The notes below the pieces were generated by a model that was not told the DNA's origin, did not search any database, and was given only the letters and a program-made list of their open reading frames with translations. Positions 41,157 through 62,425 of a stretch of 64,000 bases of DNA are shown here, piece by piece (position 1 is the stretch's first letter; every line of letters begins with the position of its first letter). Source of the DNA: Trypanosoma brucei (lineage: Eukaryota); the NCBI GenBank assembly GCA_000002445.1, contig CM000208.1:1184001-1248000 (forward strand), read 5' to 3'. The position numbers and the translations under genes were made by a program.

Positions 41157-42617
41157 CTAGTTGATATCTGTTTTGTTCCGCTTCCTTATGTATGAATCGA
41201 GCTCGCCTTTAATGGAACGGAACCCGCACTCGTAATCTTGTCCCTCAAGGCGGTACAGTCGAAGTTGTTCTTCAGCTTCTTCGTACAGCGCCTTTATGCG
41301 TGTCAGCTCCCTTCTTACCACCTTCAGTTCAATATTGTTGGAGTGTTCTTCCTCGGACAACCCCACATAATTTGAGATACCGCGGTTCCAGCAACTTTGC
41401 ATGTTTTCGACGTACGCATCGATCTCCCGCAATGTGGGGACCGCAGAAAGTCCCTGAGGTGATGCCTTGTTAGACCCCAGACGAGGAAGTGACTCCCGTT
41501 TTATCAACAATGGGGGCTCACACTCCTCAATCTTCCTCCAGTAATTTTCATCTATTTGTGACTCAACGGCACCTGGTTCCTCTGTAGTGACGCTCACCTT
41601 CCCCTTCCACCCCCTCCTGGTTGGTTTAGGAAGCCTCTTTTTCGGTTCAAAAGGAGCTAATATGTGTTGAGTTACTGGGTCAAAAAAACTATTAACCCAG
41701 TCCATTTGGGGAAACATTGACATAAACTGACCAATTAACTGAGAAGTTGTTAAAATAACTCCCTCGTCTGACTTACTAAAGGGCATAGTCCCCTGGCATT
41801 TGTTTTCCATGTGAACGACTGCTACAGCTGATTTTCGAGGTGTTTCTGTCGTAAATACAGGAAAAATAAGGAGACTTGAAGTGACACGCGATGAATCAAC
41901 CGTATACTGATTAAGGGCAATCCCGCTACCCAAAACTTCCGCGTCCACAGAGCCTAGGCATCTGTGATGAACCAACTGGGGGGGAAATGCAAGCCTGGCC
42001 GCGCAGTTTGCTATGGAAATCATCTCATCATCTTTGCGAATAAATATATGAGATGAGGATGCTTTCGAAATTCTTGTCGCGCCTTCAAGGATATTATACA
42101 ACGTAGCAGCTATGTACTTTGATACCTCCTTCGATATTTGAAGAGGTCCGCCAGGTACCTTCTCCCTTGGAATGCGATACGCCGTTACACTTGAAGGTTT
42201 GGTAATTACAACCTTCTTCCCTTCGTTAGAACGACGTTGCCCGGGTGTTTGCCTTCCCTCGTTAACTAGCTCAGGTAACCCGTCAGCGCGTTTGGGTCGT
42301 TCCTTCTCCGTGATATCACCAGTCATAGTCCGACCACTCTCCCGTAATGCCGATTCTATCGGCCCTATAGCGTCACGGATTCTATCAGGTAGCGGTCCCA
42401 CTTGGTGATGAAATTCCGGGCGTGTCCTTGCAAAGGTATCAAGCATTTCAGCTATTAGTTTCAGTTCATCAATCTGTTCACGATGAGGAAAGGCCATCCT
42501 TTTTTTTTTGTCCTCAGTTAGTAAATACGACCTAGTTACTTTCGATATCGTAGCAAATAAAAAACGTATATGTACGTATATATAGCGGCAACGACAATAG
42601 CAATTAGAATCGCTCAT
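41157..42617 (-). CDS. Hypothetical protein (486 aa)
   Basis: Long uninterrupted ORF in array orientation; C-terminal coiled-coil-like segment; no family recognised. Confidence 0.5.
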   Translation of the reverse strand: MSDSNCYCRCRYIYVHIRFLFATISKVTRSYLLTEDKKKRMAFPHREQIDELKLIAEMLDTFARTRPEFHHQVGPLPDRIRDAIGPIESALRESGRTMTGDITEKERPKRADGLPELVNEGRQTPGQRRSNEGKKVVITKPSSVTAYRIPREKVPGGPLQISKEVSKYIAATLYNILEGATRISKASSSHIFIRKDDEMISIANCAARLAFPPQLVHHRCLGSVDAEVLGSGIALNQYTVDSSRVTSSLLIFPVFTTETPRKSAVAVVHMENKCQGTMPFSKSDEGVILTTSQLIGQFMSMFPQMDWVNSFFDPVTQHILAPFEPKKRLPKPTRRGWKGKVSVTTEEPGAVESQIDENYWRKIEECEPPLLIKRESLPRLGSNKASPQGLSAVPTLREIDAYVENMQSCWNRGISNYVGLSEEEHSNNIELKVVRRELTRIKALYEEAEEQLRLYRLEGQDYECGFRSIKGELDSYIRKRNKTDIN

Positions 42618-43968: not shown

Positions 43969-45282
43969 TTAATCATCATCTGAAAAATTCTGCAGCTCGT
44001 GGAACCTACCTAGTGCCCTTGACCAAGTTGTGGACTGATTTCTATCGCAAAGTTTTGACGTAAAGCCAACAAAAACAGACTGATCTTCCCTCGACACCGC
44101 AGTCATCGGCTGCTTTTGGATGTCTGCATTGTCGGGTGCAGGCTCAAAATATTGCAAGTCTCTCGGGCTATTCAGCTCCACAGAAAAAGGGGCCTTCTCA
44201 TTTCGGATACTGTCGGTCAGAGGGACACCCTTACAGAATGGGTGGCGGATTATTTCCTCAAACCCGTATCGCTCTTTTGAATCGGCAATAAGGTGAGAAA
44301 TCAAATCAATTGCTTCCTTTGACACCGTCGTTTGATCCTTCGGAAACTCCAAGTGCTCTTTGAACTGTATTATCTTCTTAGCGGTTGCGGTGTTATTATC
44401 GTTGAAAAATGGAGGATATCCAAATATCATTTCATATAGAATAACACCAGCGCTCCACCAGTCACAGGAATAGTCATATCCCCTTCCAATTAGAACCTCA
44501 GGTGCAATGTAGGCGGGTGAGCCGACAGTAGAAAAGAACATGACCTTTCTTTCCTTTTTATCCCTGAAGCGTTTCTTTACGTCATCATCAACGGTTACAT
44601 CCTCCGTTAAATAGCTATCGTCGGCTACGGATGTACTTTCAGCCTGATCCGGATCTCTCTTAGACAACCCAAAATCTGCTAATTTAACATGGCCCTCCCG
44701 ATCAATAAGGACATTATCCGGCTTCACATCCCTGTGAACATAGCCCATCTTGTGCAGCGCATTCAGTGCTAAAACCAACTCAACGAAATAAAATCTTGCC
44801 GTTTCTTCCGGGAAGACATCGTAACGGATGAGCCAAGAAATAAGATCCCCTCCGGAGCAGTACTCTGTTACTATATAAAGGAAGTCTTGATCTTGGAATG
44901 CTACCACCAAATCCGTAATCCATGGACAACTTACTCGCTTCTGCCGTAGTTTTGCGTCAGAAAGAAGATCTCTCTCTGTGTGTACATTAAGTGATTGCTT
45001 CCTTTTCACAATTAGATCCTTTCGTATCTTTTTCATGGCATAGACAATGTGAGGTTCTTCCGGTCTCCAACACTGAAACACCTCCGCGAATGCACCCCTC
45101 CCAATTGCGTCCCCAACACAGAACTCGTTCACTGTGTGCTTCTTCTGTCTACCTCGGGAATGTTCAATAGCAAAACTTTTCTTGTCCCCCACCATTCCTT
45201 TAACGTAGTACTCACCTGTATACTTTTTGGCAACGGCAACCTTTGCGTCAGTGCCAACTTGAGATTTAGGCACATCTGACAT
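43969..45282 (-). CDS. NDR/LATS-family AGC protein kinase (PK50/PK53-like) (~438 aa from MSDVPKS… at 45282)
   Basis: Kinase subdomains (GRGAFAEV, YAMKKI, HRDVKPDNVLI, DFGLSK, …GSPAYIAPEV) with long DFG–APE insertion typical of NDR kinases; ORF track over-extends 5' by 33 codons. Confidence 0.85.
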   Translation of the reverse strand: MSDVPKSQVGTDAKVAVAKKYTGEYYVKGMVGDKKSFAIEHSRGRQKKHTVNEFCVGDAIGRGAFAEVFQCWRPEEPHIVYAMKKIRKDLIVKRKQSLNVHTERDLLSDAKLRQKRVSCPWITDLVVAFQDQDFLYIVTEYCSGGDLISWLIRYDVFPEETARFYFVELVLALNALHKMGYVHRDVKPDNVLIDREGHVKLADFGLSKRDPDQAESTSVADDSYLTEDVTVDDDVKKRFRDKKERKVMFFSTVGSPAYIAPEVLIGRGYDYSCDWWSAGVILYEMIFGYPPFFNDNNTATAKKIIQFKEHLEFPKDQTTVSKEAIDLISHLIADSKERYGFEEIIRHPFCKGVPLTDSIRNEKAPFSVELNSPRDLQYFEPAPDNADIQKQPMTAVSREDQSVFVGFTSKLCDRNQSTTWSRALGRFHELQNFSDDD

Positions 45283-45536
45283 CTTGCCTGTTTTTTCTCC
45301 CCCACCAAAGAGCTTGAGGCTCAAAACAGTAGTAACAGTACAAGGCGAATAGAAAAGATGTTCAATAATTAGCAAACACATATCAACTCACGGCTATGTG
45401 CATGCACATACGCTCAAAAATTTTAAAAATCCGATGGGTCATTTTTTAGTCGCACACAGTAAATAAAATAATAGCAGAGGAGAGCGAGGAAGTGAGTCAA
45501 AAAGATTAGATGGAACACAACATCGGAGACAAACAT

Positions 45537-45980
45537 TCATAGGAGTAGCTTTTTCTTTCGATGCTCTAGTTTTGTAGGCTTCATACGTGTTCTTTTTGGC
45601 CATTTATTCTCGCCGCCCTTCGAGGCTTTTAAGCTGCTTTTCAACTGTTTTTGGATAGACAAATTCTTCCAGTCCAGGAACGGTGCCCTCTTCAGATCCG
45701 ATGGAAGGTGCACAAGTCGTACACTTGATCCCTTTAAGAAAACACGACCCTCTACAGAAAGCGAAGAGTCTCGGTGCTGGCACCGCACATCAATAAGTTC
45801 TATGTCCCCACATATTGCATCAAGTTGCATCAGCTTGCCATCATAAACACTGCCATCAGTAGTTTCCACCTTGACGAGGAATCCGGTCGCCTCACAAATG
45901 GCACGTAAGGGAATATCAGCTACACCTTCCATATCCCTAATAACGACTACCTCAACGATCAACTTGCCTATTTCTCCCAC
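45537..45980 (-). CDS. Sm-like (SmD3-type fold) protein with basic C-terminal tail (147 aa)
   Basis: Sm1/Sm2 motifs (…FLVKVETTDGSVYDGKLMQLDAICGDIELIDV…RVFLKGSSVRLVHLPSDL) aligning best with SmD3; first gene of the minus-strand array. Confidence 0.6.
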   Translation of the reverse strand: MGEIGKLIVEVVVIRDMEGVADIPLRAICEATGFLVKVETTDGSVYDGKLMQLDAICGDIELIDVRCQHRDSSLSVEGRVFLKGSSVRLVHLPSDLKRAPFLDWKNLSIQKQLKSSLKASKGGENKWPKRTRMKPTKLEHRKKKLLL

Positions 45981-48900
45981 AATTTTGACAATTTGAAAAA
46001 AGTGCTAGTGGCGACCAAATCATGCAAAAAATCGACTTTCTTTACGTCTTATTACAAATTAATGCACTCACACACGGTGCTCCCGAACACAAAAAAGTTC
46101 AGGGCAAGCCAGAGAGGGAAAAGAGGCGTACGAAAACCACCAAGTGCTATGAAACATAGATGCCAAAAACAAAACCCTATCGCACAACACCACCTTCGTG
46201 GAGTGTCATCGCGGTCCACGCGAGTCCGGGGCCTCCGTGTCGCGCTGCGAGCAGCAACGACATATGGGTGAAGTATGCCCACGCACAATCGTCCTGAAGA
46301 ATAAAGAAAAACTGCTCCATAAGCCTGTTTACAGACACACTTCACAAAGACATAAACAGTAGGATGTCACTGGAATCAACAGACAACTAGGAACAAGGTT
46401 GCAAAAAAAAAGTCCATTTGATTGCTTCTCACATCAAACATTACATACATACACATGCTATACCGCTCTATACCACCTTACGAATCAACATATGGGTGGA
46501 ACCCCCGCACAAAGCGCGTCCTGCACAACAAATCCCCACGACCAATAGCAACCAGAAAATGAGCAAAAGCGGTTACGGCGGCGCCCGCCGCGATGTGCTG
46601 GAAACAGAAGTAAAAGAAAGATGGAGAAAATTCCACAACAACGATCTCCCACATCGGGACGCTGCTCCGCGCTGCAGCATAAGAAAGGGGCTCCTCTCAA
46701 TTTCCATGCTCACACGAGGGGCTGCTAATGACGGGAAGGCTACGAAGATGGTGAAGTAGCCACAGGGGTCCCCCGTCCGCTTCGGATCCGACGATCGTCT
46801 GTCGTACCCCATCGCCTGTGAACAAAATGTCCCAAACCGAAGAAACCCCAGCTCTCTCCGGCGCTCTAGCCCCAGCCTCGCTACGGTTTTTTGGCCCGCG
46901 CCACCGGCAACCACCAGCAAAGAACGGGGAGGAGCACACCCACGAACTCTGGTGCCCCAAGGCACCGAAGCGTAGTGCGACAAACCGTTAGGAAAGAGTT
47001 GTCACGGACAAAAACGAAAAGAAGAGGAGAAAACCCATGGGGTGCCACTCACACCCATACCGCTAACGCCTGGCACCCGCTTAGGTGAATCAGAGGCAAA
47101 GAACCACCTCTCCACCCGTACCTGAAACCCTTGAAGCAACCACTGCCACTTCGGCCTCTGCAGCGATATCCTCGAGCGCTTTGTTTACATGGGACAGACC
47201 GCTGAGCGTAGGTAGGGAGTAAAGTGACTCAATCACAGTGCTTTTGAGCCTGCCGCAAAAGCGCAGATTTTTCACTTTCTTCAAAAGACACCACGGCCAG
47301 CGGTGCCGGCCACCGACCCACTACAAGCATAGTGGTTGCTAAACATGGGGTGGTTTTGCCACCACCGCCACCATACGGATCGGTAACTAGTTCCCGCCGG
47401 CCGCTACTTGTGGCAGTAGCCAGTTGACGGGGATAGGGCGGTAGTGATGTATGTTGACCTTTTGCCACGGCTCGATCCTCCGTCCCACCGATGCGCCGGC
47501 ACCTCCATCAGTACGCTGAACGCGGAGCACTACAAGCTGCGTTAACAACCGGATGAGTTTCCCATTTCGGAAAGTAAGATTTCGCCGATCGGAAGGTTGA
47601 TCATCCCCTTGGTTTTTGCGACTTAATGAGCATGTTGGACGCTCACGATTTGGAAGTCAGTTGTGGGTGCTGCAGCGGAGGCCCTGGAGGGACACGAAAT
47701 CGCGCATTGCATTTCGATAAACGCAGTGCACCATTATAAAAGCGATTATTCACGTTCGGTGGGGAGTCTTCATCACACTTTACTGTGCCGCAAATGATGC
47801 ACCACGGTAAATTCGGGGCGAAATCAAAAGGTACCAGCATACGGTTCCACTGAAGATACAATCCTGAGACTGTAGTATTCAGGAGGGACCCAGCAATATT
47901 TGCAGTGAGAGAAGAACTGACCTATTGGCCCACCGAGACGTCCACCAACACGATTCTGTCCTCCTCATGCGTTACCATGTGAATGCGCGCACTTCCCTCC
48001 CCCCATACACACACCACCCCAGAACTGATGCATGTCTGGTATATCTCGAACAACTTTACACCCCGCTAACGCGTGGCTCCGTTCAACTTCTTTGAAGTGT
48101 GATTTTGCGAAGGCACCCCCACCCCTAATCCAAACTACAACTTTTTACAATCATCTCTCGGTGTCTAAAAGCTCGTTATTCGCTGCAAAGCGTTGGTTAA
48201 GCACAAAATTGTATACGCCTACGGACTACATAGTACCCGAGTTCAAAGAGAACCATCGACAGCTACCGCAGCGTTCCCACTATTCAGCACAACGGGGCAC
48301 TTCCGAAGTACTGTAGGTAACGGCCGATAGTCTGTGGAATTATACACTTTACACAAACAGGGCATATAATTATGCGGTGATTTCCCTAGTGTTCGATGCT
48401 ATTCAAGATGTGAGAATGCATTTCCTACGGTGACTAAAAGTGTGTTATATCGACATAGTTTTCCCCCGCACATACTAATAATATACTATGCGGTGTTATG
48501 TGCACAATATGGGAGGTGTGGCTACTGTATATGTTATTTGTTAACTCTTCCTTCGGATGAAACACTACAGTGTCACACCTCTCCTTCTCACATCATATGT
48601 ATGTGCTTCACCTCACATTATTACTCCATACCATCGTGTTCTAATGGGAAAAATAATGCGGAATGATAGATTAGGTGAAAAAAGAAAAGATCAGAAAGGC
48701 ATGACTATCTCTCTCTATGGTGTGTGGTATACGCTGTTGATGCTTTGAAAGTTCTGCATCATCACGTGATATCGTATATCCACATGCTGTGTGCATGTAT
48801 TCGTGTGATGCATGCTTGGAACAATGGAGAGTGTGACCATGTCAGTTTGTGTTCACCACCGTGCTCTTCATCTGTAGGAGTAGGTAAAACTAACAACAGA

Positions 48901-51566
48901 TCATCAATATTTCAACGAAGGGAAGACAGGGTCGGTTTTAATATGCGGCCGCCGAGTATCGGAGCAACGGTGGAGCCCCAACGTATCCGTAGTGTTCAAC
49001 CCCCTCCGTTGCGGTCTCCGCGTCCCCGCTCCTCATTGTTCGGCCGCTTTTGAAGACGCCACGTTGAGACTGGAACCTGTGTCTTGCCGCTTTTGCTGGA
49101 AAGAGGAAGGAAGATCACTGTGGCCACTAACAGTGGAGGGTCGGGTGTCGTGAGATGTGTCTATCTTCCGTTGGGGTTTTCTTCTTGGGAAAGCGGTTTA
49201 CCTTAGTGGGCGGCGGTAACCTGTTCTATTTGGAAGGATGTCGTGCAGGGGGTGAGTGAGTTTTCTTGACCAAGTTTACGAATTTGTTGTGCACCCCTGT
49301 TTTATCCCACTGCTTGAAGTGTTTCGGAATAGATGATAGGGAGGATGGTATGGCAAGAAACCTGCCGGGACCTTTACCGTTTCACCGCTGACTACATGTT
49401 CCCACAATTTTCTACCATATCCTTCGGGCGGCATTGCAGTGAGAGTGCCATGTGGGACAGGGGACAGATTGGAACTTGATCTTCCGGAGGTCTTCGGAGT
49501 TATAGAGTGATTGCTTCTCTTCTCCTTTCCTTTGGCGTGACTCTCATACGGAGGCTCTTGGTGAGCAGGATACAATTCGCCTGCTGACTTTTTGGTTTAT
49601 TTTTTCCCATATTTCAGTGTTGCGGGGTCACTTTCGGCACCGTTGGGAATCGAGAAGTGACGTATAAAGGTGTTCGCTTCTGCAGCAAAAAGTGGTTCCG
49701 TTTGGTATTCATTTGTGGAGACACTTTCCCTCCTTTCCATTTCGGAAAACTTTTTGTCACGGAAGAAGGGCTTTTGGTATTGTCCCGTCCGATGATCTTT
49801 GCCCCGATCGTTCCATCATGAATAATAGCTACAACTGTGTGTGTCTGTACGGCTGTGGATATTTCCCCAGTCCCCAATCGCTTCGGTCGCTTTTACTCTT
49901 TTATAGCACGGTTTAGAGTTGGTAAACTGGTGCCGTTCTGTGGAAGCAGTGGCCGGAGGAAAGTGTGGGGTGAAGTCGTTAGCTCGTTTGAGTTGACGCA
50001 GGCCTTGGAGAATGTCATGTGGTGACCTCCGTGGGCTGTGGCCGTGTCGCCAATTTGTGGCGGCGCAGTCCTTTGATGTGACTGAATCGGGTGCATAACT
50101 TGTTCTCCGGCCATGCTCACGGTTTTTTTTGTTTTCGCTGCCGCTTCAGCCGTCTTCTCCCCAGCAGATTATGAAATATGGTCCGGCGCGTGGGGGAAAT
50201 GAGTTGGTTCCACCCAAGAACGTTGGAGCCAGAGGCCTATGCTGCCTTTTCCCGTGTGTATTTGTGAAGGGGGGGGGGACGAGGCTCAGAGGAGCGGCAT
50301 GTCCATTTTTTGTGAATCCTCTTTGTCCACTGGGGAAGGAGATTGAAGTCAGGGTTGCCTGGGGGGATGACTCAATGCGCGCCGTCGGATGAGCAAACTT
50401 ATGTTTAGCGGCCCTTGTGGTGATTGCGTCAACCGGTGGGTCGACGGTAGTGGTGAGCTCAACTTCTGTTTTTGAGTTGCCGGAGCTCCGCCGCTGTGCC
50501 GGCAAAGGGGAAGGTTGGTACTGGTTAGCCCTCAGGGTACAGAGTTTGGTCTCAAATACACTGAAGGCGCCCCCTACTCGGCAGCCGCGCCTCTGAGCGC
50601 TGTTCGCCCGGATGAGTTGGTTCGTAGATGCTGCACTGGGCGCTGTGTAAAGCTCGTGGGGGGTTGGAATGGATGTGATAATCGCGTAGCAGTTTAGTGA
50701 GGATGGCGTCGACGGCGACGCCCTTTCGCATCCCTGAAGTCTTTAATATGTCTGTTCTTGTTCGACGAGGGGTTTGCTGCGGATCCCACCAAGAGTTGGT
50801 CTCGCAGTATTTTGGCCGCGGCTCTGCCCACGCTGGGTGAATTGCGCTTTGCCTGGTTTCCCCCGCCAGAGCGGGGTACAGTGGCCGGGCTGCGCGTGTG
50901 GGGTGCCGTCATTGCTGAGTGTGTCGGTGTTGTGCCCGCCCCGTTCCTGTTGCGTTAAGCAGGATTGGGCCCGGTGGGGGTTTGGTGACTCCAACCGAAG
51001 CGTCGGCATGTGGATGCGCCCCATCGTTTCTGGTGGCTGACATGTTTGGTTTCGTCGTATTGGGCCCAGGGTTATAGTGGGCGACAGGGTCTGGCTTGCG
51101 TAACCCGTCGCTTTTTCTTGTTGGCAGTTGGTGCCTTTTATTCGACGGTGGTGGCGTTTTCTGGAAATCGGTCCCCGTTCTGGGGTTCTGTCGTTGAAGG
51201 ACTCCTTGTACTTACCATATTATGATATGCATTTTGTTTGCCACCGTATGGCTTCGTTTTCTGTTTGCGTCCCTAACAGAGCAGGTGGTATCGTGGATAC
51301 CGGCGGTGCGAGGGGTTGTGCATGTTATGGCGGGCTTTGCACGACGAGCCTTGAATCCACCTTTTTTAATTATTTCAGTTCGGATTGCAGGTGATGTGCT
51401 TGCCCACACCCTGCAATTTGTTTAAAGTTTAATGGCAGTGCCGATGCCATTTTTGTCTTGGCGTATGCTAGGCGCGTGAGTTGTAGATGTCTAAGAAAAT
51501 AGTGTTGATATAGCCCTCTGTTTTTTGTTTAAGTGGTGATGTTATTGTTTTTCTTTAATCTTCCTG
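45981..51566. promoter_or_regulatory. Divergent strand-switch region (candidate bidirectional RNA pol II transcription start region), no convincing CDS
   Basis: Flanked by first gene of minus array (…45980) and first gene of plus array (51567…); only short unrecognisable ORFs; 46.0-47.5 kb C+A-rich on plus strand, 49.0-51.5 kb G+T-rich with G-runs (G10 at ~50270). Confidence 0.6.
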
Positions 51567-52205
51567 GTGTTGTTTAGTGCAAAGCTAGGTGCAATGGAGG
51601 ATATGGGCGACTTGGCGAAGGGCAACTTGGCTTCGTCCAAGTGGCTTGGCACTTTCAGCCTCCTTTATGCCGAAGTGGTTGTTTCGTTTGCGAGTGCCAT
51701 AGTTCTACTTGTTTTGACTGTTGTCCAGTTACTTTATCGAACCAGCTGGCGGGCCAGGAAGTTATGGAGAGTAGGAAACGAGGTGCGCTTCGATGGGGAG
51801 CGTTACCTCGCGAAACCGGAGGGCGACATTGGTCGGAAAATTTTGGAAAGGGGCATAAAATCGCATGAAAATGTTTACTTTGAGCGTCCCTCAGGCACAC
51901 TTCCCCCAATTGTAGCGAATGACTGTGACGCTAGGGTAAATTGTCTCTCTATGATTGCGGAGACAAGGAAGATACTCTACAAGCAGTACGGGGAACCGGC
52001 GCGTTTAATGTCTATGCGTTGTTGTTTGTCGTGTATAGAAAATGTTTTGCCGTCGAGCCAAGCGGAGGATTTCCTTCGCATATATGAGTCTGTCCTTTAC
52101 GGGCAGTATCGCGCGGATGGGGTTCCGGAGGTGATTTCTGACGAAGAGATAAAGTTTTTGCACGTTTTTTACCACAATTCAATTCTCAAAGAGATTCAAT
52201 GGTAG
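51567..52205 (+). CDS. Hypothetical membrane protein (212 aa)
   Basis: First ORF of plus-strand array; one predicted TM helix (FSLLYAEVVVSFASAIVLLVLTVVQLL); no family recognised. Confidence 0.4.
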   Translation: MLFSAKLGAMEDMGDLAKGNLASSKWLGTFSLLYAEVVVSFASAIVLLVLTVVQLLYRTSWRARKLWRVGNEVRFDGERYLAKPEGDIGRKILERGIKSHENVYFERPSGTLPPIVANDCDARVNCLSMIAETRKILYKQYGEPARLMSMRCCLSCIENVLPSSQAEDFLRIYESVLYGQYRADGVPEVISDEEIKFLHVFYHNSILKEIQW

Positions 52206-52412
52206 CGCGGTGTTAAAACGTGCCAGGGAACATGTTTAAAATATACCCTTCACTTGTATCAAACTGTCAAAAAATGTTGGCTGCTTTCAGTTTTAATATT
52301 TACCAATCGATAATAATATTTTCTCTCTTGCTGTCTATATTTGCATGCAACAATGCATTGAGGTTCGTGTATTTACATTTTTATGCGTATAGACCGTCAC
52401 CCGTAAGGCAAG

Positions 52413-53321
52413 ATGAGCATCACCATAAAGTTGACCAACGGTGATAAGAAGACTGTCGAAGTACCTGACCTAAGTATAACAGTTATCCAGTTTAAGGAAC
52501 TTGCGGAGAACGCTGTTGAGATACCTGCAGCTGAGCAAAGAATTGTTTTGCGAGGAAAGGTTCTTAAGGATACAGATGTTCTCTCCGCGGTGGGCTTGGA
52601 GCACGGACAAGCTGTTCACATTGTGCGCGGACAACAGCCGAAAACTCAAGCAACATCCACGTCTGCACCCGTCCCAGGACCCTCAAACCCGCCTCACGTG
52701 GCGAGTAATTCGTACTCTACCGCGTCTAATGCTCCCATGAATTCAAATTCTGAGAGTTCCAACCCTTATATGCCGCTGGCGGGATATATGCCAACTTCAC
52801 TGAGTGGGGGTGTAAACGCTGCGGGTATGGGAGGATCGTTCCCCCCGTTTTCCAGTGATGCTGCTGCGCAATTGATGCAGTCTCCGTTGTTTTCCCAAAT
52901 GATGCGGGATATGTTGGGAAATCCCCAGTTTATGCAGACAATGATGCAATTTGCTGGAAACCAGTCAAGGGGCAATGATGCAGGAATGCAGCAACTGTTA
53001 AGCGACCCTCTCATGATGCAATACGTCATGCAGTTGGCGTCTAATCCGGAATTTTTGCAGGAGATGACGCGAATGGTGCCCGGAGGAGGCCCCCTTTCCG
53101 CCCCTCAAACTCCCTTTTTTGGACAGCCAATCCCGAACTTGACAGGGGCACCGCAAGGAGGTGGTTTGTCGCAACCTCAGGGAGACCCACGGGTTGTGTA
53201 CCAATCCCAACTTCAACAGTTAAGGGATATGGGGTTTCCGAACGAAGAAGCGAATATTGCGGCATTGCAGCAAACCCAAGGTAATATTCACTTCGCGATC
53301 GAAAGGCTTTTAAATGGGTAA
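52413..53321 (+). CDS. Ubiquilin/Dsk2-like shuttle factor (UBL – STI1-like Met/Gln-rich repeats – UBA) (302 aa)
   Basis: N-terminal ubiquitin-like domain (MSITIKLTNGDKKTVEV…), central M/Q-rich STI1-like repeats, C-terminal UBA (…QLQQLRDMGFPNEEANIAALQQTQGNIHFAIERLL). Confidence 0.8.
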   Translation: MSITIKLTNGDKKTVEVPDLSITVIQFKELAENAVEIPAAEQRIVLRGKVLKDTDVLSAVGLEHGQAVHIVRGQQPKTQATSTSAPVPGPSNPPHVASNSYSTASNAPMNSNSESSNPYMPLAGYMPTSLSGGVNAAGMGGSFPPFSSDAAAQLMQSPLFSQMMRDMLGNPQFMQTMMQFAGNQSRGNDAGMQQLLSDPLMMQYVMQLASNPEFLQEMTRMVPGGGPLSAPQTPFFGQPIPNLTGAPQGGGLSQPQGDPRVVYQSQLQQLRDMGFPNEEANIAALQQTQGNIHFAIERLLNG

Positions 53322-53569
53322 GCAGCAGAGGCCACTAGGTATATTTTGCGATTAGCTGAAACCGAGGCATTTCTTATGTTAAGTCTCTGTATTTAGCTAT
53401 GATCTCACTATTTCCCTCTTTTCTTCGTTGGGTTGTGTACCTAGCGATGTTTTACCTCGACAATTCTCGGTCGAGGGGGCTAAGGCGGTTTCTACCCCTA
53501 TCAATCTTTGAAAGAAGTTATGGGTGTCTCCTCCTACCTTCATTTATTGCAAGGTGGTTGCTACATAAA

Positions 53570-53602
53570 ATTTTTATTTTTTGTCTCTGCTTTCCTCTTA
53601 AG
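53570..53602 (+). promoter_or_regulatory. Polypyrimidine tract + AG: candidate spliced-leader trans-splice acceptor for CRK3
   Basis: tttttattttttgtctctgctttcctcttaAG ends 33 nt upstream of the CRK3 ATG. Confidence 0.5.
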
Positions 53603-53635
53603 TTCTTCAGGAAACGTTAGGTTGAAGGAGGAGAT

Positions 53636-54571
53636 ATGACAATGCTTGGGGCGTTAACCGGTCGACAACTTTCCTCTGGTCTTAAGGATCAGTTCGACCG
53701 CTATAATCGAATGGACATACTTGGAGAAGGAACGTATGGAGTTGTGTACCGTGCTGTTGACAGGGCAACGGGACAGATCGTCGCACTGAAGAAAGTGAGA
53801 TTAGATCGCACCGATGAGGGAATACCTCAAACAGCTCTTCGGGAGGTATCTATTTTGCAAGAAATCCATCACCCCAACATTGTTAATCTTCTAGATGTTA
53901 TATGTGCCGATGGGAAGCTTTACTTGATATTTGAGTATGTTGATCATGATCTCAAAAAGGCTCTCGAGAAGAGGGGTGGAGCATTCACGGGAACTACACT
54001 AAAAAAGATAATTTACCAGCTACTCGAGGGACTTTCGTTTTGTCATCGGCACCGCATTGTCCATCGAGACCTAAAACCAGCAAACATACTTGTCACCACG
54101 GATAATTCCGTTAAAATAGCAGACTTTGGATTGGCTCGCGCTTTCCAGATTCCGATGCACACTTACACTCACGAGGTTGTCACACTCTGGTATAGAGCGC
54201 CAGAGATTCTCCTCGGTGAAAAGCACTACACCCCGGCAGTGGATATGTGGAGCATTGGTTGTATTTTTGCTGAACTAGCTCGAGGTAAGGTACTCTTTCG
54301 TGGTGACAGTGAGATTGGACAGTTATTTGAGATTTTTCAGGTGCTTGGCACCCCAATGGATGCTGAGGGGTCGTGGTTGGGGGTGTCGTCTCTTCCAGAC
54401 TATCGTGACGTCTTTCCAAAGTGGAGTGGAAAACCCCTCACTCAGGTGTTACCAGCGCTTGACGGTGATGCCGTTGATCTGCTTTCTCAGATGCTGAGGT
54501 ATAACCCTGCTGAACGTATTTCAGCCAAGGCGGCGCTGCAACATCCATGGTTTAGTGATGCCATGTTTTAG
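53636..54571 (+). CDS. CRK3: cdc2-related kinase 3 (CDK1-like cyclin-dependent kinase) (311 aa)
   Basis: Near-identical over most of its length to remembered trypanosomatid CRK3 ([13 protein letters not shown]…, [45 protein letters not shown], …PWFSD). Confidence 0.9.
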
Positions 54572-55022
54572 ATCATTATACATAATTAGACATCATTTGT
54601 TTTCGCTCGTTGTTCCAATCAGATTTTAGATGGCATGCTTTTTCTGTGCAGTTGAGAGCCCAGTAGAGCGTTTTACATGCCCATCCTCGCCTAAGCAGGT
54701 ATGTCTTATAAGAGGATGTGTCGGTCTTTGAGGGTCTTTTCCTTTCCTTAAAAGCTGTTCTGGACGTATTTGTTACAGTAGATCAACCTGTGCGTTCTAT
54801 CTTCGATACTTTTTTCTGGAGGAAACAAGTACAATAACGAGGAGGGAAGAAAATAAAACTTGTTCTGTGCCCAATTCTCTTTCTCCCTTTATAAAAATCA
54901 TCACTATCCTTTTATTTATCTCGATATTGTATTGCTATAATAATTGTTGTTGTTTTCATTTTCTGTCAGTTTTATTTAGCAGACTTGGTGCTTGGTGTCG
55001 GTGTGTTCTACAAGCGAGAGGA

Positions 55023-55760
55023 ATGACAGCACTATCGAATGAAGAAATGTATGTAGCAAAAGCTGCCGTTGAAGAGAACAAAAGGCTGTATAAGCTCCTA
55101 AACGGGTTATCAAAAAGAGATGAAATTGTCGAAGAAAGTGCCGTTGCAAACAGCAATTACGGTATTTTTTCACTACAGCGGCGGAACGAAGTCCTAAAAA
55201 ATGACATCAATGAGCTGGAGAATCAACTTGATGACTGCGATGTCGGATACACGGACACCGTGTTGGAATACAACCGATTAAAGGAGCGGCGAGGGCACTT
55301 ACGCAATGAAACCCAAAGCTTGCGCAATATTTTGAGTCACCAGTTTCCAAAGGTACGAGAGGCTGAAAGACTTGAAATGGAGCGTAAAAAAATTAAGGAA
55401 ACGAGTGAAGAGAAAAATGTGGAGGCAAAAGATGAAGCAAAGCGTTTGAAGGAGATGAAAGAAAAGGAAATGAGCCAAGTTAGTGTGCTGTTGAGAAAGG
55501 AGACCCACCTGCAGGAAAAGCTAGACAAAATGATACTGCCACTAGATACCACCGACCGCCAGGCGATCAGGTCAGCGATCAGTGCTGCTGACAGGACAAT
55601 CCAGAGACTGAAAGTAGAGATTAACAAGTATCAATCCTTTCGCCAGCCACATCAAAGTACAAGGGCTGACGATGCGGACTGTGGTCTAGCAAAGCTAAGG
55701 GAGGAGTACTATGCACTTCGTGAGAAGTTAGATATGTTGCATCAAGATGCGAGTATGTGA
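55023..55760 (+). CDS. Hypothetical coiled-coil protein (~245 aa from MTALSNEEMY… at 55023; ORF track starts at 54867)
   Basis: Continuous heptad/charged sequence (…LENQLDDCDVGYTDTVLEYNRLKERRGHLRNETQSLRNIL…KRLKEMKEKEMSQ…); upstream 52 codons are Cys/Leu-rich, probably UTR. Confidence 0.5.
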   Translation: MTALSNEEMYVAKAAVEENKRLYKLLNGLSKRDEIVEESAVANSNYGIFSLQRRNEVLKNDINELENQLDDCDVGYTDTVLEYNRLKERRGHLRNETQSLRNILSHQFPKVREAERLEMERKKIKETSEEKNVEAKDEAKRLKEMKEKEMSQVSVLLRKETHLQEKLDKMILPLDTTDRQAIRSAISAADRTIQRLKVEINKYQSFRQPHQSTRADDADCGLAKLREEYYALREKLDMLHQDASM

Positions 55761-56023
55761 TTAGCGATTAGCGGTGCATTGATGTTCACTTGTTGCCGCG
55801 TTTCGATTTTTTTTTTGTGTGGGTATGCAGGCATACATATAATTATTGCTTACGCTGTCAATGTACATCCATCTACGTGGAGGTTCATCATCAGGGAGGG
55901 ATTGCCCAGTAAAAATATATTTATGTATCTGTTTTGGCTGATTTTACTCGCTTTTTCTTTAGCTTCCAGGTTGATTTTGTCTATATACCTATTTTACTGT
56001 GCCTTTTCAATCCGTAGTCTGAG

Positions 56024-58264
56024 ATGAGGAGGTTTTGTGATGTCGTCTTTTATCCGAACCGATTTTACCGATTGGCGTCGTCGGCTTTCTTAAAAAACAT
56101 TGATAAGCTTCGAAATATCGGTATCAGCGCACACATTGACAGTGGAAAGACAACTGTCACTGAACGAATCCTTTTTTATACCGGTAGAATCGACAAAATC
56201 CACGAAGTTAAAGGGGGATCAGAGGTTGGTGCAACAATGGATTCGATGGAACTTGAAAAAGAAAGGGGGATAACAATCCGTTCCGCCGCAACACAGTGCA
56301 AATGGGGTGATCATTTGATTAATATAATAGACACCCCTGGACATGTCGATTTTACTATTGAAGTGGAACGTGCCCTTCGTGTCCTCGACGGTGCAGTGAT
56401 GCTGATGTGCGGAGTCGGTGGTGTGCAGAGTCAGACCCTTACGGTGGACAGACAGATGAAGAGGTATGGTGTGCCCCGTGTTTGTTTTATCAATAAACTA
56501 GATCGTGACAATGCTAACCCTAGGCGTGCATTGGAAATGGCGAGGGAACGCTTGGGGGTGAATGCCGCATTTATTCATCTCAATATGGGAGTTGCACAAG
56601 ACTTTGAAGGTGTTGTCGACGTCATAGAGTCCCGTGCTGTATACTTTGACGGTAAAAATGGGGAAAAGATCCGATTTGAGGATATACCAAGCTACATTGC
56701 CGATGACGTGGTGGCAACACGAAAGGAGCTTATATCAAGATTGGCTGACTGTGATGCCGAAATGGAAGATGTTTTCTTAAACGATGTGGAGCCTACAGCA
56801 GAGCAGATTCACTCAGCGATTCGGCGCACCACGATTGCAAACAAGTTTGTGCCTGTGTTAGTGGGTTCAGCCTACAAGAACAAAGGCATACAACTTCTTC
56901 TTGATGCCGTCTGTCGTTACCTACCTTCCCCAATGGAGAAGCCAAATTCGGGTTACTCGGTGACCAAGGTAAAGGACGATGAAGGTAACGTTGCCAACGT
57001 TAAGGGCGAGATCGTTCCTTTAGCGACTGATGACGAAAAACCTCTCGTGGCAGCTATATTTAAGCTTGAGGAAACGAAGAAAACCGGCCTTCTTAATTAC
57101 ATTCGTGTTTACCAGGGTAAAATGAGAAGGGAACATTTAATGAATGTTCGTAGCGGAAAAACGTTTCTTCCTCAGAAGCTGGTCCGTATGCACGCGAATT
57201 CCACCGATCAGATCGATGAAGTGAGGGCGGGTGACATATGCGCTATCCAGGGTGAAATCGATGCGTCATCTGGAGATACTATCGTGAAGGCAGGTGTGAC
57301 GGCCGGTCAACTAATTACTTGTGAGGACATGTATGTACCACCACGTGTCATTTCCGCGTCAGTCAAAATCAACAATGACCGCGACAGTAGCAAGTTGAGA
57401 GAGCGAATGGGCGCATTCATGCGGGAGGACCCGACTTTCTGTTTTTATCGTAACACGGAAACAAATGAGGATATCGTCGAAGGCATGGGGGAACTTCATC
57501 TCGATATATACATTGAGCGCTTGAAGCGCGAGTATGATCTTGAAGTGGTGTTGGGCAAACCGACGGTCAACTATCGTGAAGTGATCACTGAGAGAAAGGA
57601 ATTTGATTTCGTTTACAAAAGGCAAAGTGGTGGTGCAGGACAGTGGGCCCAACTGAAGGGATTCATCGATGTGCTACCCATTGATATGTCGGTGGAGAAA
57701 GGAGTGAAAAACAAGGTTACCGTAAAGTGTTCCAACGGGGATGTACGTGAGGCCTTACAAAAGTCTGTCGTCAAACAGCTGGAGAGGAAAATTTTTGTGA
57801 AGGGGGAGTTGATGGGCGCTCCTGTATGGGGCGTTCACTTTCACCTTAGCGGGGGTGCGATGCATGAGGTGGACTCGACAGACTTAGCATTCAGGAACGC
57901 AACTCAAGAGCTGTGGGAGACGCTCCTTCCTCAGTTAAAACCTACACTTGTTGAACCCTACATGGTTGTGGAGATTACAGTTCCATCGACTTGCATGACT
58001 GATGTGAGCACTGAGTTTGCAAAGCGTGAAGGCGTTGTTACAGAGACGACTATTAGCGGAACAGATGCTATAATTCGTGGAGAGACAGCTCTGGATACAA
58101 TGTTTGGGTTCATTTCTGATCTCCGCAGACTTACAAAGGGTCAAGGGGATTTTGGCATGCAGTTTAAGGAGTACCGACCGATGCAGCAGTACAAAGCGCA
58201 ATGTCGCATGGACGAGCGGAACAAAGACCTTGGTCGTAAGCTGTACAGGTTGAGTGGACAGTAA
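56024..58264 (+). CDS. Mitochondrial elongation factor G (EF-G1) (746 aa)
   Basis: GTPase motifs G1-G4 (AHIDSGKTT, DTPGH, NKLD); EF-G domains II-V collinear; N-terminal ~35 aa presequence-like (MRRFCDVVFYPNRFYRLASSAFL). Confidence 0.9.
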   Translation: MRRFCDVVFYPNRFYRLASSAFLKNIDKLRNIGISAHIDSGKTTVTERILFYTGRIDKIHEVKGGSEVGATMDSMELEKERGITIRSAATQCKWGDHLINIIDTPGHVDFTIEVERALRVLDGAVMLMCGVGGVQSQTLTVDRQMKRYGVPRVCFINKLDRDNANPRRALEMARERLGVNAAFIHLNMGVAQDFEGVVDVIESRAVYFDGKNGEKIRFEDIPSYIADDVVATRKELISRLADCDAEMEDVFLNDVEPTAEQIHSAIRRTTIANKFVPVLVGSAYKNKGIQLLLDAVCRYLPSPMEKPNSGYSVTKVKDDEGNVANVKGEIVPLATDDEKPLVAAIFKLEETKKTGLLNYIRVYQGKMRREHLMNVRSGKTFLPQKLVRMHANSTDQIDEVRAGDICAIQGEIDASSGDTIVKAGVTAGQLITCEDMYVPPRVISASVKINNDRDSSKLRERMGAFMREDPTFCFYRNTETNEDIVEGMGELHLDIYIERLKREYDLEVVLGKPTVNYREVITERKEFDFVYKRQSGGAGQWAQLKGFIDVLPIDMSVEKGVKNKVTVKCSNGDVREALQKSVVKQLERKIFVKGELMGAPVWGVHFHLSGGAMHEVDSTDLAFRNATQELWETLLPQLKPTLVEPYMVVEITVPSTCMTDVSTEFAKREGVVTETTISGTDAIIRGETALDTMFGFISDLRRLTKGQGDFGMQFKEYRPMQQYKAQCRMDERNKDLGRKLYRLSGQ

Positions 58265-59992: not shown

Positions 59993-60395
59993 GTAAAAGT
60001 GGTATTATTTTCAGATACATCGCCTCTTTCCCTCTATCTCTCTCTCTCTCTGGCGGACGTTTATTTTTGTTTTATACACACCTCCAGTGGTAATTTGTTT
60101 TTCTTGTATTCTCTGCGTGCTGAGGTTCCACTTTGTTCCATTCCATGTTATAGAGTAGTGTGAACTCAAATGTGTGAGGGAAATAAGAGCTGTCTGATTA
60201 TCTTCTGTGTGTGTGTTTGTGTGTTTGTGTTTGTTCGGGAAGTTCACGTGCAGAAGTTTATGTGTTACATTATTTTAATATTACCTCCTTGGGTATCGGC
60301 ACCTCAACCTCGGCATGTGCCTCGTGTGTTGTGTTGCATCTGTTATACTTTGCTGTTGTTGCCCCGTCGGATATACGTAATCTCTTCTTCTTTCG
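59993..60395. repeat. ~400-bp dispersed repeat, copy B (reverse complement of copy A at 21866-22268)
   Basis: See copy A; ends ~120 bp upstream of the eIF4E-family ATG; contains (GA)n and (GT)n-like microsatellites and a pyrimidine-rich 3' end. Confidence 0.9.
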
Positions 60396-60501
60396 GTGTG
60401 ATGGATTTGAACTTGGTTAAGTAAGAAACGACAATTGGGAGAAATAGTTGTGACTGACGGAAACCCTGGCAGGACAGGGAACAAGGGACATTCTTCAGTA
60501 A

Positions 60502-61113
<612 letters not shown>

Positions 61114-61969: not shown

Positions 61970-62425
61970 ATGCTGGTTTTCGTCAAGTTGGCTGGCGGTA
62001 AGACAACCGCTGTACAAACGGCCGCCGACGACACCGTGGCGAGCGTCAGGGCGAAGGCAGGTCTAGGTGAGAATGATCTCCTCTTCTACGGCGGTGAGTG
62101 CCTGTGCGACGGTGCATTGCTGTGCGACTACGCGCTGAAGCGGGAGAGCACCATCCAGGCGATGCTCCCGGTTGAGGGTGGTAAGGGCAAGAAAAAGAAG
62201 AAGAAGGTTTTCACGAAGCCGAAGAAACCCATTCACCGTCACAAACTCGAGAAGATGCGTGCGTTGAAGTACTTCAAAGTCACGGAGAACGACGACGGCT
62301 CATTCAAGGTGGAACGCACGCGTGACGAGTGTCCGAACCCGAACTGTGGCGCTGGCGTCTTCATGGCGCAGCACAAGGGACGAAAGTACTGTGGTAAGTG
62401 TCACCTGACGTACACCATGAAGTAA
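61970..62425 (+). CDS. RPS27A: Ubiquitin-like–ribosomal protein S27a fusion (~151 aa from MLVFVKL… at 61970)
   Basis: C-terminal S27a Zn-ribbon (…[28 protein letters not shown]) preceded by K-rich linker and divergent ubiquitin-fold domain ending …VEGG. Confidence 0.8.

What the first reader, a model, noticed from the sequence alone, without database searches (positions are those of the whole stretch)
45981..51566. Gene-free 5.6 kb divergent strand-switch region with mirrored strand-composition skew
All ORFs ≥60 aa between the minus-strand Sm-like gene and the first plus-strand gene are short, overlapping and unrecognisable. Composition is asymmetric in a mirrored way. 46.0-47.5 kb is C+A-rich on the plus strand (so G+T-rich on the strand transcribed leftward). 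49.0-51.5 kb is strongly G+T-rich on the plus strand with G-runs, including G10 at ~50270 and repeated ggtgg/gttgg motifs (so G+T-rich on the strand transcribed rightward). In African trypanosomes, GT-rich tracts at divergent strand-switch regions have been reported to drive directional pol II initiation and H2A.Z deposition. This region therefore looks like a bidirectional pol II start with a GT-rich element facing each gene array. The 47.5-49.0 kb centre has mixed composition and may be the nucleosome-depleted core.
Basis: partly seen in the sequence, partly recalled or inferred. Interest (0 to 1): 0.6.

Follow-up and report, generated by a model that had tools for sequence, protein, structure and literature searches.

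The report
Known trypanosome divergent transcription start region
This is the gene-free gap between two back-to-back gene arrays on Trypanosoma brucei chromosome 10, where RNA polymerase II starts transcribing outward in both directions; its mirrored G+T-rich composition is real, but it is a typical example already listed in the literature.

Summary
Window 45933-51593 (5,661 bp between the two first start codons) has no credible ORF, Pfam domain, tRNA or Rfam RNA. Its two arms are G+T-rich on the outward-transcribed strand: 0.602 for 45933-47250 on the minus strand and 0.605 for 48751-51593 on the plus strand. A 1.5 kb centre has no skew. The cumulative GT-AC curve of the whole 64 kb has its minimum at 48359.

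Gene coordinates in the supplements of Kolev et al. 2010 place the window on T. brucei TREU927 chromosome 10 (window x = v4 coordinate x + 1,184,000). Their Table S14 already lists both flanking arrays as "Divergent" pol II transcription units. The one ORF annotated inside the gap (Tb10.70.2240) gave no detectable transcript.

The published coding-strand 10-mers of Wedel et al. 2017 hit the arms 16:0 in the sense orientation. Their density is only 1.3-2.7 times that of the arrays.

The same skew sign runs through the whole arrays. Third codon positions have nearly the same composition as the arms, so the skew marks transcription polarity and does not prove a promoter element.

The strand switch is conserved in five other trypanosomatids, but its length ranges from 0.44 to 7.7 kb and its sequence is not conserved.

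Verdict: correct reading, ordinary, already known.

The parts
45537..45932 (-). First gene of the leftward array: Sm-like (SmD3-like) protein, 131 aa, Tb10.70.2250.
   Evidence: Weak LSM domain hit. The orthologues are 123-131 aa. The translation starts with M at 45932. The published poly(A) site 1229448 equals window 45448.
45933..47250 (-). Left arm. It is G+T-rich on the minus (leftward-transcribed) strand and about 51% G+C. This is the presumed dispersed promoter and leader region of the leftward array.
   Evidence: Sense-strand G+T 0.602, G-skew 0.134, T-skew 0.275. Wedel 10-mers hit 0 times on plus and 7 times on minus. CCACC occurs 12 times against GGTGG twice on the plus strand, and A4+ runs 19 times against T4+ runs 6 times. 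Pyrimidine tracts on the minus strand at 47010-47034, 46606-46630 and 46296-46311.
46573..46812 (-). Tb10.70.2240, an annotated 'hypothetical protein' ORF. It is the only gene model inside the gap and is most likely spurious.
   Evidence: It is listed in Kolev 2010 Table S2, the annotated ORFs that gave no detectable transcript. The enclosing frame has a codon score of 0.074, in the junk range. No Pfam hit.
47251..48750 (.). Centre without consistent skew. This is the presumed non-transcribed spacer between the two outward-facing start regions. It includes an A+T-rich stretch at about 48300-48900 (G+C 0.36-0.45).
   Evidence: G+T 0.483, G-skew -0.061, T-skew -0.010. 100-bp profile. Wedel 10-mers hit once on plus and twice on minus within 47501-49000.
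48359..48359 (.). Skew switch point: the global minimum of cumulative (G+T)-(A+C) for the whole 64 kb window.
   Evidence: The T-A minimum is at 48369 and the G-C minimum at 48635.
48751..51593 (+). Right arm. It is G+T-rich on the plus (rightward-transcribed) strand and about 52% G+C. This is the presumed dispersed promoter and leader region of the rightward array.
   Evidence: Sense-strand G+T 0.605, G-skew 0.154, T-skew 0.268. It is the most GT-rich stretch of the window at 0.5-2.5 kb scales. Wedel 10-mers hit 9 times on plus and 0 times on minus. T4+ runs occur 27 times against A4+ runs 3 times.
50269..50278 (+). G10 run on the coding strand of the right arm. G10 is the top-ranked strand-biased 10-mer of T. 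brucei start regions. Its length varies between isolates (G8 in T. equiperdum).
   Evidence: In Wedel Dataset EV1, GGGGGGGGGG occurs 132 times on the coding strand and 17 times on the non-coding strand in region 1. Alignment to T. equiperdum.
51594..52205 (+). First gene of the rightward array: conserved hypothetical protein, 203 aa, Tb10.70.2230. A pyrimidine-rich tract (51547-51566) and the AG at 51576-51577 just upstream form a plausible first trans-splice acceptor. That site is inferred, not shown.
   Evidence: 100% identical to T. equiperdum TEOVI_000651400, with orthologues of 187-202 aa across trypanosomes. Sequence read directly. Table S14 names it as the first ORF of the unit.

Best explanation
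The region is the divergent strand-switch region of T. brucei chromosome 10 (TREU927 v4 about 1,229,933-1,235,593). It lies between the unit starting at Tb10.70.2250 (leftward) and the unit starting at Tb10.70.2230 (rightward).

Mechanism, inferred from the T. brucei literature. RNA polymerase II initiates over a broad zone in each arm and runs outward. Each arm acts as a dispersed, orientation-dependent promoter whose coding strand is rich in G and T. The arms are packaged in H2A.Z/H2B.V nucleosomes carrying H4K10ac and H3K4me3, and they form R-loops. The roughly 1.5 kb unskewed centre is the non-transcribed spacer between two unidirectional start regions. RNA made from the arms is an untranslated leader. 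It is discarded when the first gene of each array is trans-spliced.

Shown here: the gene-free state, the mirrored skew and its switch point, the strand polarity of published promoter-associated 10-mers, the identity of the locus, and its published listing as a divergent pol II start.

Inferred: that the GT-rich arms themselves recruit polymerase and H2A.Z at this locus, and where exactly initiation occurs.
For: - Locus identity: four published gene or poly(A) coordinates fit one offset.
- Kolev 2010 Table S14 lists both arrays as 'Divergent' units and reports 5'-triphosphate read enrichment at every divergent unit.
- No gene or RNA lies in the gap. The only annotated ORF gave no transcript of its own, and the Kolev novel-transcript entries returned by the look-up (Tb10.NT.50 at 1.124 Mb, then Tb10.NT.51 at 1.243 Mb) include none in this interval.
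- Mirrored skew, with the global minimum of the cumulative curve at 48359.
- Wedel 2017 coding-strand 10-mers: 7 hits in the left arm and 9 in the right, all in the sense orientation and none antisense. They include G10, the top-ranked word.
- The 5.66 kb size fits the 5-10 kb described for T. brucei divergent regions with two oppositely oriented promoters.
- The two-arms-plus-neutral-centre layout matches the two R-loop and H2A.Z peaks at the boundaries of divergent regions, with depletion at the centre.
- In five other trypanosomatids the same strand switch exists, and the cumulative GT-AC minimum again falls inside it.
Against: - No chromatin or nascent-RNA data for this locus could be read directly. 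Table S14 is a list of units, not a signal track.
- The GT richness of the arms (about 0.60) is only modestly above ordinary intergenic DNA of the same arrays (0.563 pooled, up to 0.62).
- The composition of the arms is close to that of third codon positions: A .205, C .223, G .289, T .283. The skew could therefore be a by-product of transcription.
- Wedel 10-mer hits fall into only about five clusters per arm. Their density is 1.3-2.7 times that of the array sense strands.
- The elements proven to drive transcription were synthetic concatemers with long G and T homopolymers. They reached only about 1/12 of endogenous levels.
- In Phytomonas the equally long syntenic gap has almost no GT enrichment, 0.449 and 0.516.
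Confidence: 0.85

Rival explanations
1. The mirrored skew is a passive footprint, not a promoter element. Transcription-associated mutation or repair asymmetry enriches G and T on the non-template strand wherever polymerase II runs. The arms show it most clearly because they are transcribed and free of coding constraint. On this reading the region is still the place where transcription diverges, but the GT richness does not cause initiation.
For: - The same sign of skew runs through the whole arrays. Sense-strand G+T is 0.523 in coding sequence and 0.563 in intergenic DNA, and the cumulative curve falls and rises monotonically over 64 kb.
- Third codon positions (GT3 0.573, G-skew 0.129, T-skew 0.162) have nearly the base composition of the arms.
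- GTTGG, GGTGG and G4+ counts are what the composition predicts (plus my own arithmetic).
- There is no sequence conservation between species, although the skew is conserved.
Against: - Intergenic DNA inside the arrays is also unconstrained and transcribed, yet it has a much smaller G-skew: about 0.04 against 0.13-0.15 in the arms.
- Wedel 2017 showed that synthetic GT-rich elements drive orientation-dependent transcription and H2A.Z deposition, and that inverting start-region fragments reduces activity.
- The two readings are not exclusive.
Confidence: 0.35
2. The skew switch marks a DNA replication origin. On this reading the asymmetry reflects leading- and lagging-strand bias rather than transcription.
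For: ORC1/CDC6 is reported to bind all strand-switch regions, and about 45 of them fire as origins. An A+T-rich stretch (48300-48900, G+C 0.36-0.45) lies at the switch point.
Against: Only a minority of strand-switch regions are origins, and no sequence feature distinguishes them. Replication and transcription would be co-oriented here, so sequence alone cannot separate them. Nothing in the window points specifically to an origin.
Confidence: 0.1
3. The extra 5 kb, compared with T. cruzi and T. rangeli, is the decayed remnant of a gene, pseudogene or retroelement. Its coding-like G+C content would reflect that origin.
For: The arms have 51-52% G+C and G>C, like coding sequence (50% G+C, G-skew about 0.10) and unlike ordinary intergenic DNA at 43%. 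The gap is 0.44-0.49 kb in T. cruzi and T. rangeli.
Against: - No Pfam domain in any frame at E<=1.
- Codon scores are in the junk range.
- No repeats and no similarity to the rest of the window.
- No tblastn match to the syntenic gaps of other species.
- The strong T>A skew is not coding-like. Coding T-skew is about 0 overall.
Confidence: 0.04
4. The gap hides an unannotated non-coding RNA gene or a small protein gene.
For: The gap is long. There are pyrimidine tracts followed by AG on the sense strand of both arms that could serve as splice acceptors, for example 49511-49534 (+) and 46606-46630 (-).
Against: No Rfam or tRNA hit. The Kolev 2010 novel-transcript entries returned by the look-up (Tb10.NT.50 at 1.124 Mb, then Tb10.NT.51 at 1.243 Mb) include none in this interval, and the only annotated ORF is in the 'no detectable transcript' list. 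Nothing is conserved with other species.
Confidence: 0.04

Closest known systems
Divergent transcription start regions of Trypanosoma brucei with GT-rich dispersed promoters (Siegel 2009; Kolev 2010; Wedel 2017, PMC5579346)
   Same: [quoted passage not shown] At 5.7 kb it falls within the described 5-10 kb. It has a coding-strand G and T excess, strand-biased published 10-mers including G10, and an unskewed centre. This very locus is listed as 'Divergent' in Kolev 2010 Table S14.
   Different: Nothing essential differs. It is not one of the two regions functionally dissected by Wedel, which lie at Tb427 chr10 0.80 and 1.63 Mb. The density of the published 10-mers is modest, and the left arm is short (1.3 kb against 2.8 kb).
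Sequence-specific pol II core promoters in T. brucei divergent regions (Cordon-Obras et al. 2022, Cell Rep 38:110221; cited in PMC9566855 and PMC11796357)
   Same: The genomic setting is the same: two oppositely oriented, orientation-dependent promoters within a divergent strand-switch region.
   Different: The paper is not held in the library and I do not know its motif, so the window was not scanned for it. The SPARC study could not find similar motifs under its promoter peaks.
Mammalian CpG-island promoters
   Same: Both show broad, dispersed initiation, divergent transcription, G+C enrichment relative to their surroundings, a G-rich non-template strand, and R-loops. Kolev 2010 makes this comparison.
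   Different: In T. brucei there is no regulation of individual genes and the downstream units are polycistronic. There are two separated unidirectional start regions with a 4:1 sense bias rather than one bidirectional core. Briggs 2018 did not find that positive GC skew dictates R-loops in T. brucei.
Syntenic strand-switch regions of other trypanosomatids (T. cruzi, T. rangeli, T. theileri, T. melophagium, Phytomonas EM1)
   Same: The flanking genes are the same, with Sm-like / kinase / PP2C on one side and the 200-aa protein / ubiquilin-like / CDC2-like kinase / mitochondrial EF-G on the other. In all five the cumulative GT-AC minimum falls inside the gap.
   Different: The length is 438-7,707 bp against 5,661 bp here. 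No sequence similarity was detected. In T. cruzi the gap is little more than two facing pyrimidine tracts around a G+C-rich core of about 170 bp. In Phytomonas the gap is long but barely skewed.

Membership tests
T. brucei divergent transcription start region (dTSR / divergent SSR) | [quoted passage not shown] | tested here: met
   All long ORFs from 1 to 45932 are on the minus strand, and all from 51594 to 64000 are on the plus strand. The flanking genes have Pfam and orthologue support.
T. brucei divergent transcription start region (dTSR / divergent SSR) | Experimentally mapped as a pol II start (5'-triphosphate RNA enrichment; catalogued unit boundaries) | tested here: met
   This was tested by looking up published tables, not raw data. 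The window was mapped to Tb927_10_v4 through four gene or poly(A) coordinates. Kolev 2010 Table S14 lists both arrays as 'Divergent' units beginning at Tb10.70.2250 and Tb10.70.2230.
T. brucei divergent transcription start region (dTSR / divergent SSR) | Enrichment of H2A.Z, H2B.V, H4K10ac, H3K4me3, BDF3 and SPARC | not testable with these tools
   No ChIP-seq tracks are available here. The SPARC supplements do not mention the flanking gene identifiers.
T. brucei divergent transcription start region (dTSR / divergent SSR) | G-over-C and T-over-A excess on the coding strand, flipping within the region | tested here: met
   Arms have G-skew 0.134 and 0.154 and T-skew 0.275 and 0.268 on their sense strands. 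The centre is about 0. The switch is at 48359.
T. brucei divergent transcription start region (dTSR / divergent SSR) | No expressed protein-coding or RNA gene inside; size in the 5-10 kb range | tested here: met
   Tb10.70.2240 is in the 'no detectable transcript' list. The gap is 5,661 bp, against the 5-10 kb stated.
Functional GT-rich promoter element in the sense of Wedel et al. 2017 | High density of the published coding-strand 10-mers and long G and T homopolymers | tested here: inconclusive
   Polarity is perfect: 16 sense hits and 0 antisense hits in the arms. But the hits form only about 5 clusters per arm. Density is 3.5-4.5 per kb, against 1.6-2.7 per kb on the sense strand of the arrays. 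There is one G10, and the longest T run in the right arm is 8.
Functional GT-rich promoter element in the sense of Wedel et al. 2017 | Drives orientation-dependent reporter transcription and H2A.Z deposition | not testable with these tools
   This needs transfection and ChIP. The locus is not regA or regB of Wedel, whose primers are absent from the window.
Sequence-specific pol II core promoter (Cordon-Obras 2022) | Presence of the defined promoter sequence elements | not tested
   The paper is not held, and the motif is unknown to me.
Replication origin at a strand-switch region | Early-replication peak in marker-frequency sequencing | not testable with these tools
   No MFA-seq data are available here. 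Only about 45 strand-switch regions are origins, and no distinguishing sequence feature is known.

The most novel reading that the evidence does not exclude
The G+C-rich, G+T-skewed arms could be lineage-specific DNA added in the African-trypanosome branch to what is a compact gap of about 0.45 kb in T. cruzi and T. rangeli (two facing pyrimidine tracts around a G+C-rich core). The broad 'dispersed promoter' of T. brucei would then be an evolutionarily recent expansion. It might have been built and maintained by transcription-coupled mutation bias that reinforces its own directionality, rather than being an ancestral promoter design. The 7.7 kb but barely skewed gap in Phytomonas leaves the ancestral state open.
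Probability: 0.12. Interest if true: 0.4.

Novelty: already known. Interest (0 to 1): 0.12.

Why it matters
It matters little for discovery. This is one of about 70 divergent start-region pairs in a well-studied model parasite, and this locus is already listed as such. The check does show that mirrored G+T skew plus a gene-free gap picks out a pol II start region from raw sequence. It also adds two cautions. First, the skew extends over whole arrays and third codon positions, so it reports transcription polarity and does not prove a promoter element. Second, the same strand switch is kept across trypanosomatids while its length varies 17-fold and its sequence is not conserved.

Tried and rejected
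- Inverted repeat between the two arms (a 'mirror' by sequence): only 14-26 nt chance-level pairs were found.
- Hidden RNA genes: ARAGORN and Rfam (at gathering score and at E<=1) found nothing.
- Hidden or decayed protein genes and retroelements: six-frame Pfam found nothing. Codon-usage scoring gave junk-range values. A tblastn search of 162 open pieces against the syntenic gaps gave a best E of 0.006, not significant for that many queries.
- Sequence conservation with T. theileri, T. rangeli, T. cruzi and T. vivax gaps by blastn with word size 7: best E 0.16.
- Duplicates elsewhere in the window: none.
- Specific GGTGG or GTTGG motif: counts are as expected from base composition.
- Whether the locus is Wedel's regA or regB: their primers are absent from the window.
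- Locus-specific chromatin data: the SPARC supplements do not mention the flanking genes, and the Wedel supplements hold no list of start-region coordinates.
- Papers not held: Cordon-Obras 2022 and Siegel 2009.
- T. congolense would be the best species for footprinting, but its proteins have no contig on record. T. vivax and T. equiperdum contigs break inside the gap.
- The bacterial promoter/terminator scan was not used because it does not apply.
- The third large protein search and the structure tools were not spent on junk ORFs.

Full report
WHAT THE WINDOW IS. Every long ORF from 1 to about 45.9 kb is on the minus strand, and every one from about 51.6 kb onward is on the plus strand.

The genes next to the gap are as follows:
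- On the left: an Sm-like protein, an AGC/NDR-type kinase and a PP2C phosphatase.
- On the right: a conserved hypothetical protein, a ubiquilin/DSK2-like protein, a CDC2-like kinase, another hypothetical protein and mitochondrial EF-G.

The Sm-like protein is about 60% identical to T. congolense and T. vivax proteins. The first right-hand protein is 100% identical to a T. equiperdum protein. The window therefore comes from the T. brucei group.

Supplementary tables of Kolev et al. 2010 (PMC2936537) fix the position exactly:
- Tb10.70.2260 (serine/threonine kinase) at Tb927_10_v4 1227969-1229381(-) is window ORF 43969-45381.
- Tb10.70.2280 at 1225157-1226617 is window ORF 41157-42617.
- The poly(A) sites of Tb10.70.2250 (1229448) and Tb10.70.2220, the DSK2-like gene (1237502), fall 89 and 181 nt after the stops of the Sm-like and ubiquilin-like ORFs.

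Window coordinate x is therefore chromosome 10 v4 coordinate x + 1,184,000. The kinase is probably PK50 (Tb927.10.4940) and the CDC2-like kinase CRK3 (Tb927.10.4990). That rests on gene order and family and is an inference.

BOUNDARIES. The orthologues are 123-131 aa and 187-202 aa. The real start codons are most likely ATG 45932 (131 aa) and ATG 51594 (203 aa). The gap is then 45933-51593, or 5,661 bp.

IS IT GENE-FREE? Yes, as far as sequence and published transcript lists can show.
- There is no tRNA, no Rfam match at gathering score or at E<=1, and no tandem array.
- The 46 stop-to-stop frames of at least 60 codons have codon-usage frame scores averaging 0.097. Antisense junk frames in the arrays average 0.117 +/- 0.069. 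The 38 real genes of the window average 0.272 +/- 0.065.
- The long open frames on the minus strand of the right arm (198 and 158 codons) are expected, because that strand is poor in T and so poor in stop codons.
- Six-frame translations with stops masked hit no Pfam family at E<=1. There is no reverse-transcriptase or endonuclease remnant.
- Nothing in the gap resembles the rest of the window.
- The only gene model ever placed here, Tb10.70.2240 (window 46573-46812, minus strand), is in Kolev's Table S2 of annotated ORFs 'not producing a detectable transcript'. The entries of Kolev's novel-transcript list returned by the look-up include none in this interval: Tb10.NT.50 lies at 1.124 Mb and the next listed, Tb10.NT.51, at 1.243 Mb.

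IS THE MIRRORED SKEW REAL? Yes.
- Plus-strand G+T is 0.416 in 45981-47500, 0.489 in 47501-49000 and 0.611 in 49001-51566.
- The right arm is the most GT-rich stretch of the window at 0.5, 1, 1.5 and 2.5 kb scales. Over 2.5 kb it reaches 0.615, against 0.577 for the best stretch elsewhere.
- With boundaries redrawn where the skew actually fades (47250 and 48750), the two arms are almost identical in composition on their sense strands. G+T is 0.602 and 0.605, G-skew 0.134 and 0.154, T-skew 0.275 and 0.268. They differ in length, 1.3 kb against 2.8 kb. The 1.5 kb centre has no skew.

What sets the arms apart from ordinary intergenic DNA is not G+T as such. Intergenic DNA is already at 0.563 because it is T-rich: T 0.339, G 0.225, G+C 0.43. 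The distinguishing features are high G (0.29-0.30), low A (0.17-0.18) and about 52% G+C.

The G10 run is at 50269-50278. GTTGG is strand-biased (11:1) but GGTGG is not (6:4). Both occur about as often as the base composition predicts, roughly 6.7 and 6.6 by my arithmetic. They are not motifs in their own right.

COMPARISON WITH THE PUBLISHED PROMOTER SIGNATURE. Wedel et al. 2017 (PMC5579346) reported the following:
- Transcription starts at the 5' end of H2A.Z domains, with a 4:1 sense bias.
- All fragments of two start regions drive a reporter.
- 10-mers enriched at least six-fold on the coding strand are mostly runs of G or T.
- Synthetic concatemers of these words drive orientation-dependent transcription and H2A.Z deposition, at about 1/12 of endogenous levels.

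I took their list of 157 words (Dataset EV1) and counted exact matches:
- Left arm: 0 on the plus strand, 7 on the minus strand.
- Right arm: 9 on the plus strand, 0 on the minus strand.
- Centre: 1 and 2.

Polarity is perfect and includes the top word, G10. The hits fall into about five clusters per arm. Their density (3.5-4.5 per kb) is only 1.3-2.7 times that of the sense strand of the arrays (1.6-2.7 per kb). The locus is not one of the two regions Wedel dissected, because their primers are absent from the window.

PUBLISHED STATUS OF THIS LOCUS. [quoted passage not shown] The text states that 5'-triphosphate RNA reads were enriched 'at every divergent transcription unit'.

Later papers give matching descriptions:
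- Start regions are broad 5-10 kb regions marked by H2A.Z and H2B.V. Those annotated as divergent show either one SPARC peak (a bidirectional promoter) or two (two nearby unidirectional promoters).
- The 5-10 kb region between two divergent units contains two oppositely oriented core promoters.
- Divergent strand-switch regions show two R-loop peaks at their boundaries that correlate with H2A.Z, H2B.V and H4K10ac, with depletion at the centre.

The anatomy found here, two skewed arms around a neutral centre, fits that picture.

WHAT THE SKEW DOES AND DOES NOT SHOW. The sign of the skew is the same throughout both arrays. Sense-strand G+T is 0.523 in coding sequence and 0.563 in intergenic DNA.

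Third codon positions of the 38 genes have A .205, C .223, G .289, T .283. That gives GT3 0.573, G-skew 0.129 and T-skew 0.162, which is nearly the composition of the arms. The arms thus look like transcribed DNA free of coding constraint.

This favours, or at least allows, the view that the skew is largely a footprint of transcription polarity. Against a purely passive origin, intergenic DNA inside the arrays has a much smaller G-skew (about 0.04). Wedel's synthetic elements also work in an orientation-dependent way. The two readings are compatible, and sequence alone cannot separate them.

COMPARATIVE ANATOMY. The same strand switch, with the same flanking genes, exists in five other trypanosomatids. 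The gap lengths are:
- T. theileri: 1,497 bp
- T. rangeli: 491 bp
- T. cruzi: 438 bp
- T. melophagium: 1,412 bp
- Phytomonas EM1: 7,707 bp

In all five the cumulative GT-AC minimum of the 20 kb locus falls inside the gap. There is no detectable sequence similarity to the T. brucei gap at the DNA or translated level.

In T. cruzi the gap is essentially two facing pyrimidine tracts around a G+C-rich core of about 170 bp. In Phytomonas the long gap is barely skewed, 0.449 and 0.516.

The boundary between the two units is therefore ancient. Its length is labile (17-fold range) and its sequence is free to change. The long G+C-rich GT-skewed arms are, among the species seen here, particular to the T. 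brucei lineage.

T. equiperdum is 99.7% identical over the 1.7 kb it covers. The differences include G10 to G8 and T8 to T9. Its contig, like the two T. vivax contigs, ends inside the gap.

RIVALS.
- Replication origin. ORC1/CDC6 binds all strand-switch regions, about 45 fire, and no distinguishing sequence is known. This cannot be tested here.
- Decayed gene or mobile element. Tested and not supported.
- Hidden RNA or small gene. Not supported.

VERDICT. It is a typical member of a well-described class, so interest is low. The only mildly new points are the near-identity of arm composition with third-codon composition and the 17-fold length variation of a conserved strand switch.

Noticed in passing
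window 18283-19134: Tandem repeat with a 299-bp unit, 2.8 copies, 99% identical, in an intergenic stretch of the minus-strand array.
   Followed up: no
window 58678-60271 (+): This corresponds to the published novel transcript Tb10.NT.51 (chr10 v4 1242678-1244271) of Kolev 2010. It overlaps the 105-aa ORF at 58825-59142.
   Followed up: partly
window 43969-45381 (-): Kolev 2010 Table S1 places the splice-acceptor site of kinase Tb10.70.2260 at 1229326, which is window 45326 and inside the long ORF. The real start codon must lie downstream of the first ATG.
   Followed up: no
L005 9563-10000; L002 9510-10000; L001 8504-10000; L008 8589-10000; L007 2294-10000: The same strand switch between the Sm-like gene and the 200-aa gene is conserved in T. 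cruzi, T. rangeli, T. theileri, T. melophagium and Phytomonas. Its length is 438, 491, 1,497, 1,412 and 7,707 bp, against 5,661 bp here, with no sequence similarity.
   Followed up: yes
L004 position 1 (= window ~49894); L003 1-819; L006 1-497: The T. equiperdum contig ends inside the gap, and so do the two T. vivax contigs, one from each side. Short-read assemblies seem to break in this region. G10 (window 50269) is G8 and T8 (window 50123) is T9 in T. equiperdum.
   Followed up: partly
window 11376-11385 (+) and 32923-32933 (+): There are two other long homopolymers. One is a G10 on the antisense strand of the minus array. The other is a C11, which is G11 on the sense strand, in the intergenic stretch 32402-32958. 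G10-type runs are therefore not exclusive to the start region.
   Followed up: no
L008 8875-9780 (+): The T. melophagium annotation places a 195-residue gene call, spanning 906 bp, inside the syntenic gap. No counterpart is called in T. theileri, T. rangeli or T. cruzi.
   Followed up: no
L003, L005, L006 (whole loci): The loci labelled T. vivax (35-38% G+C) and T. cruzi (41% G+C) have lower G+C than I expected from memory for those species. Their genes do translate to the named proteins. I did not examine this further.
   Followed up: no
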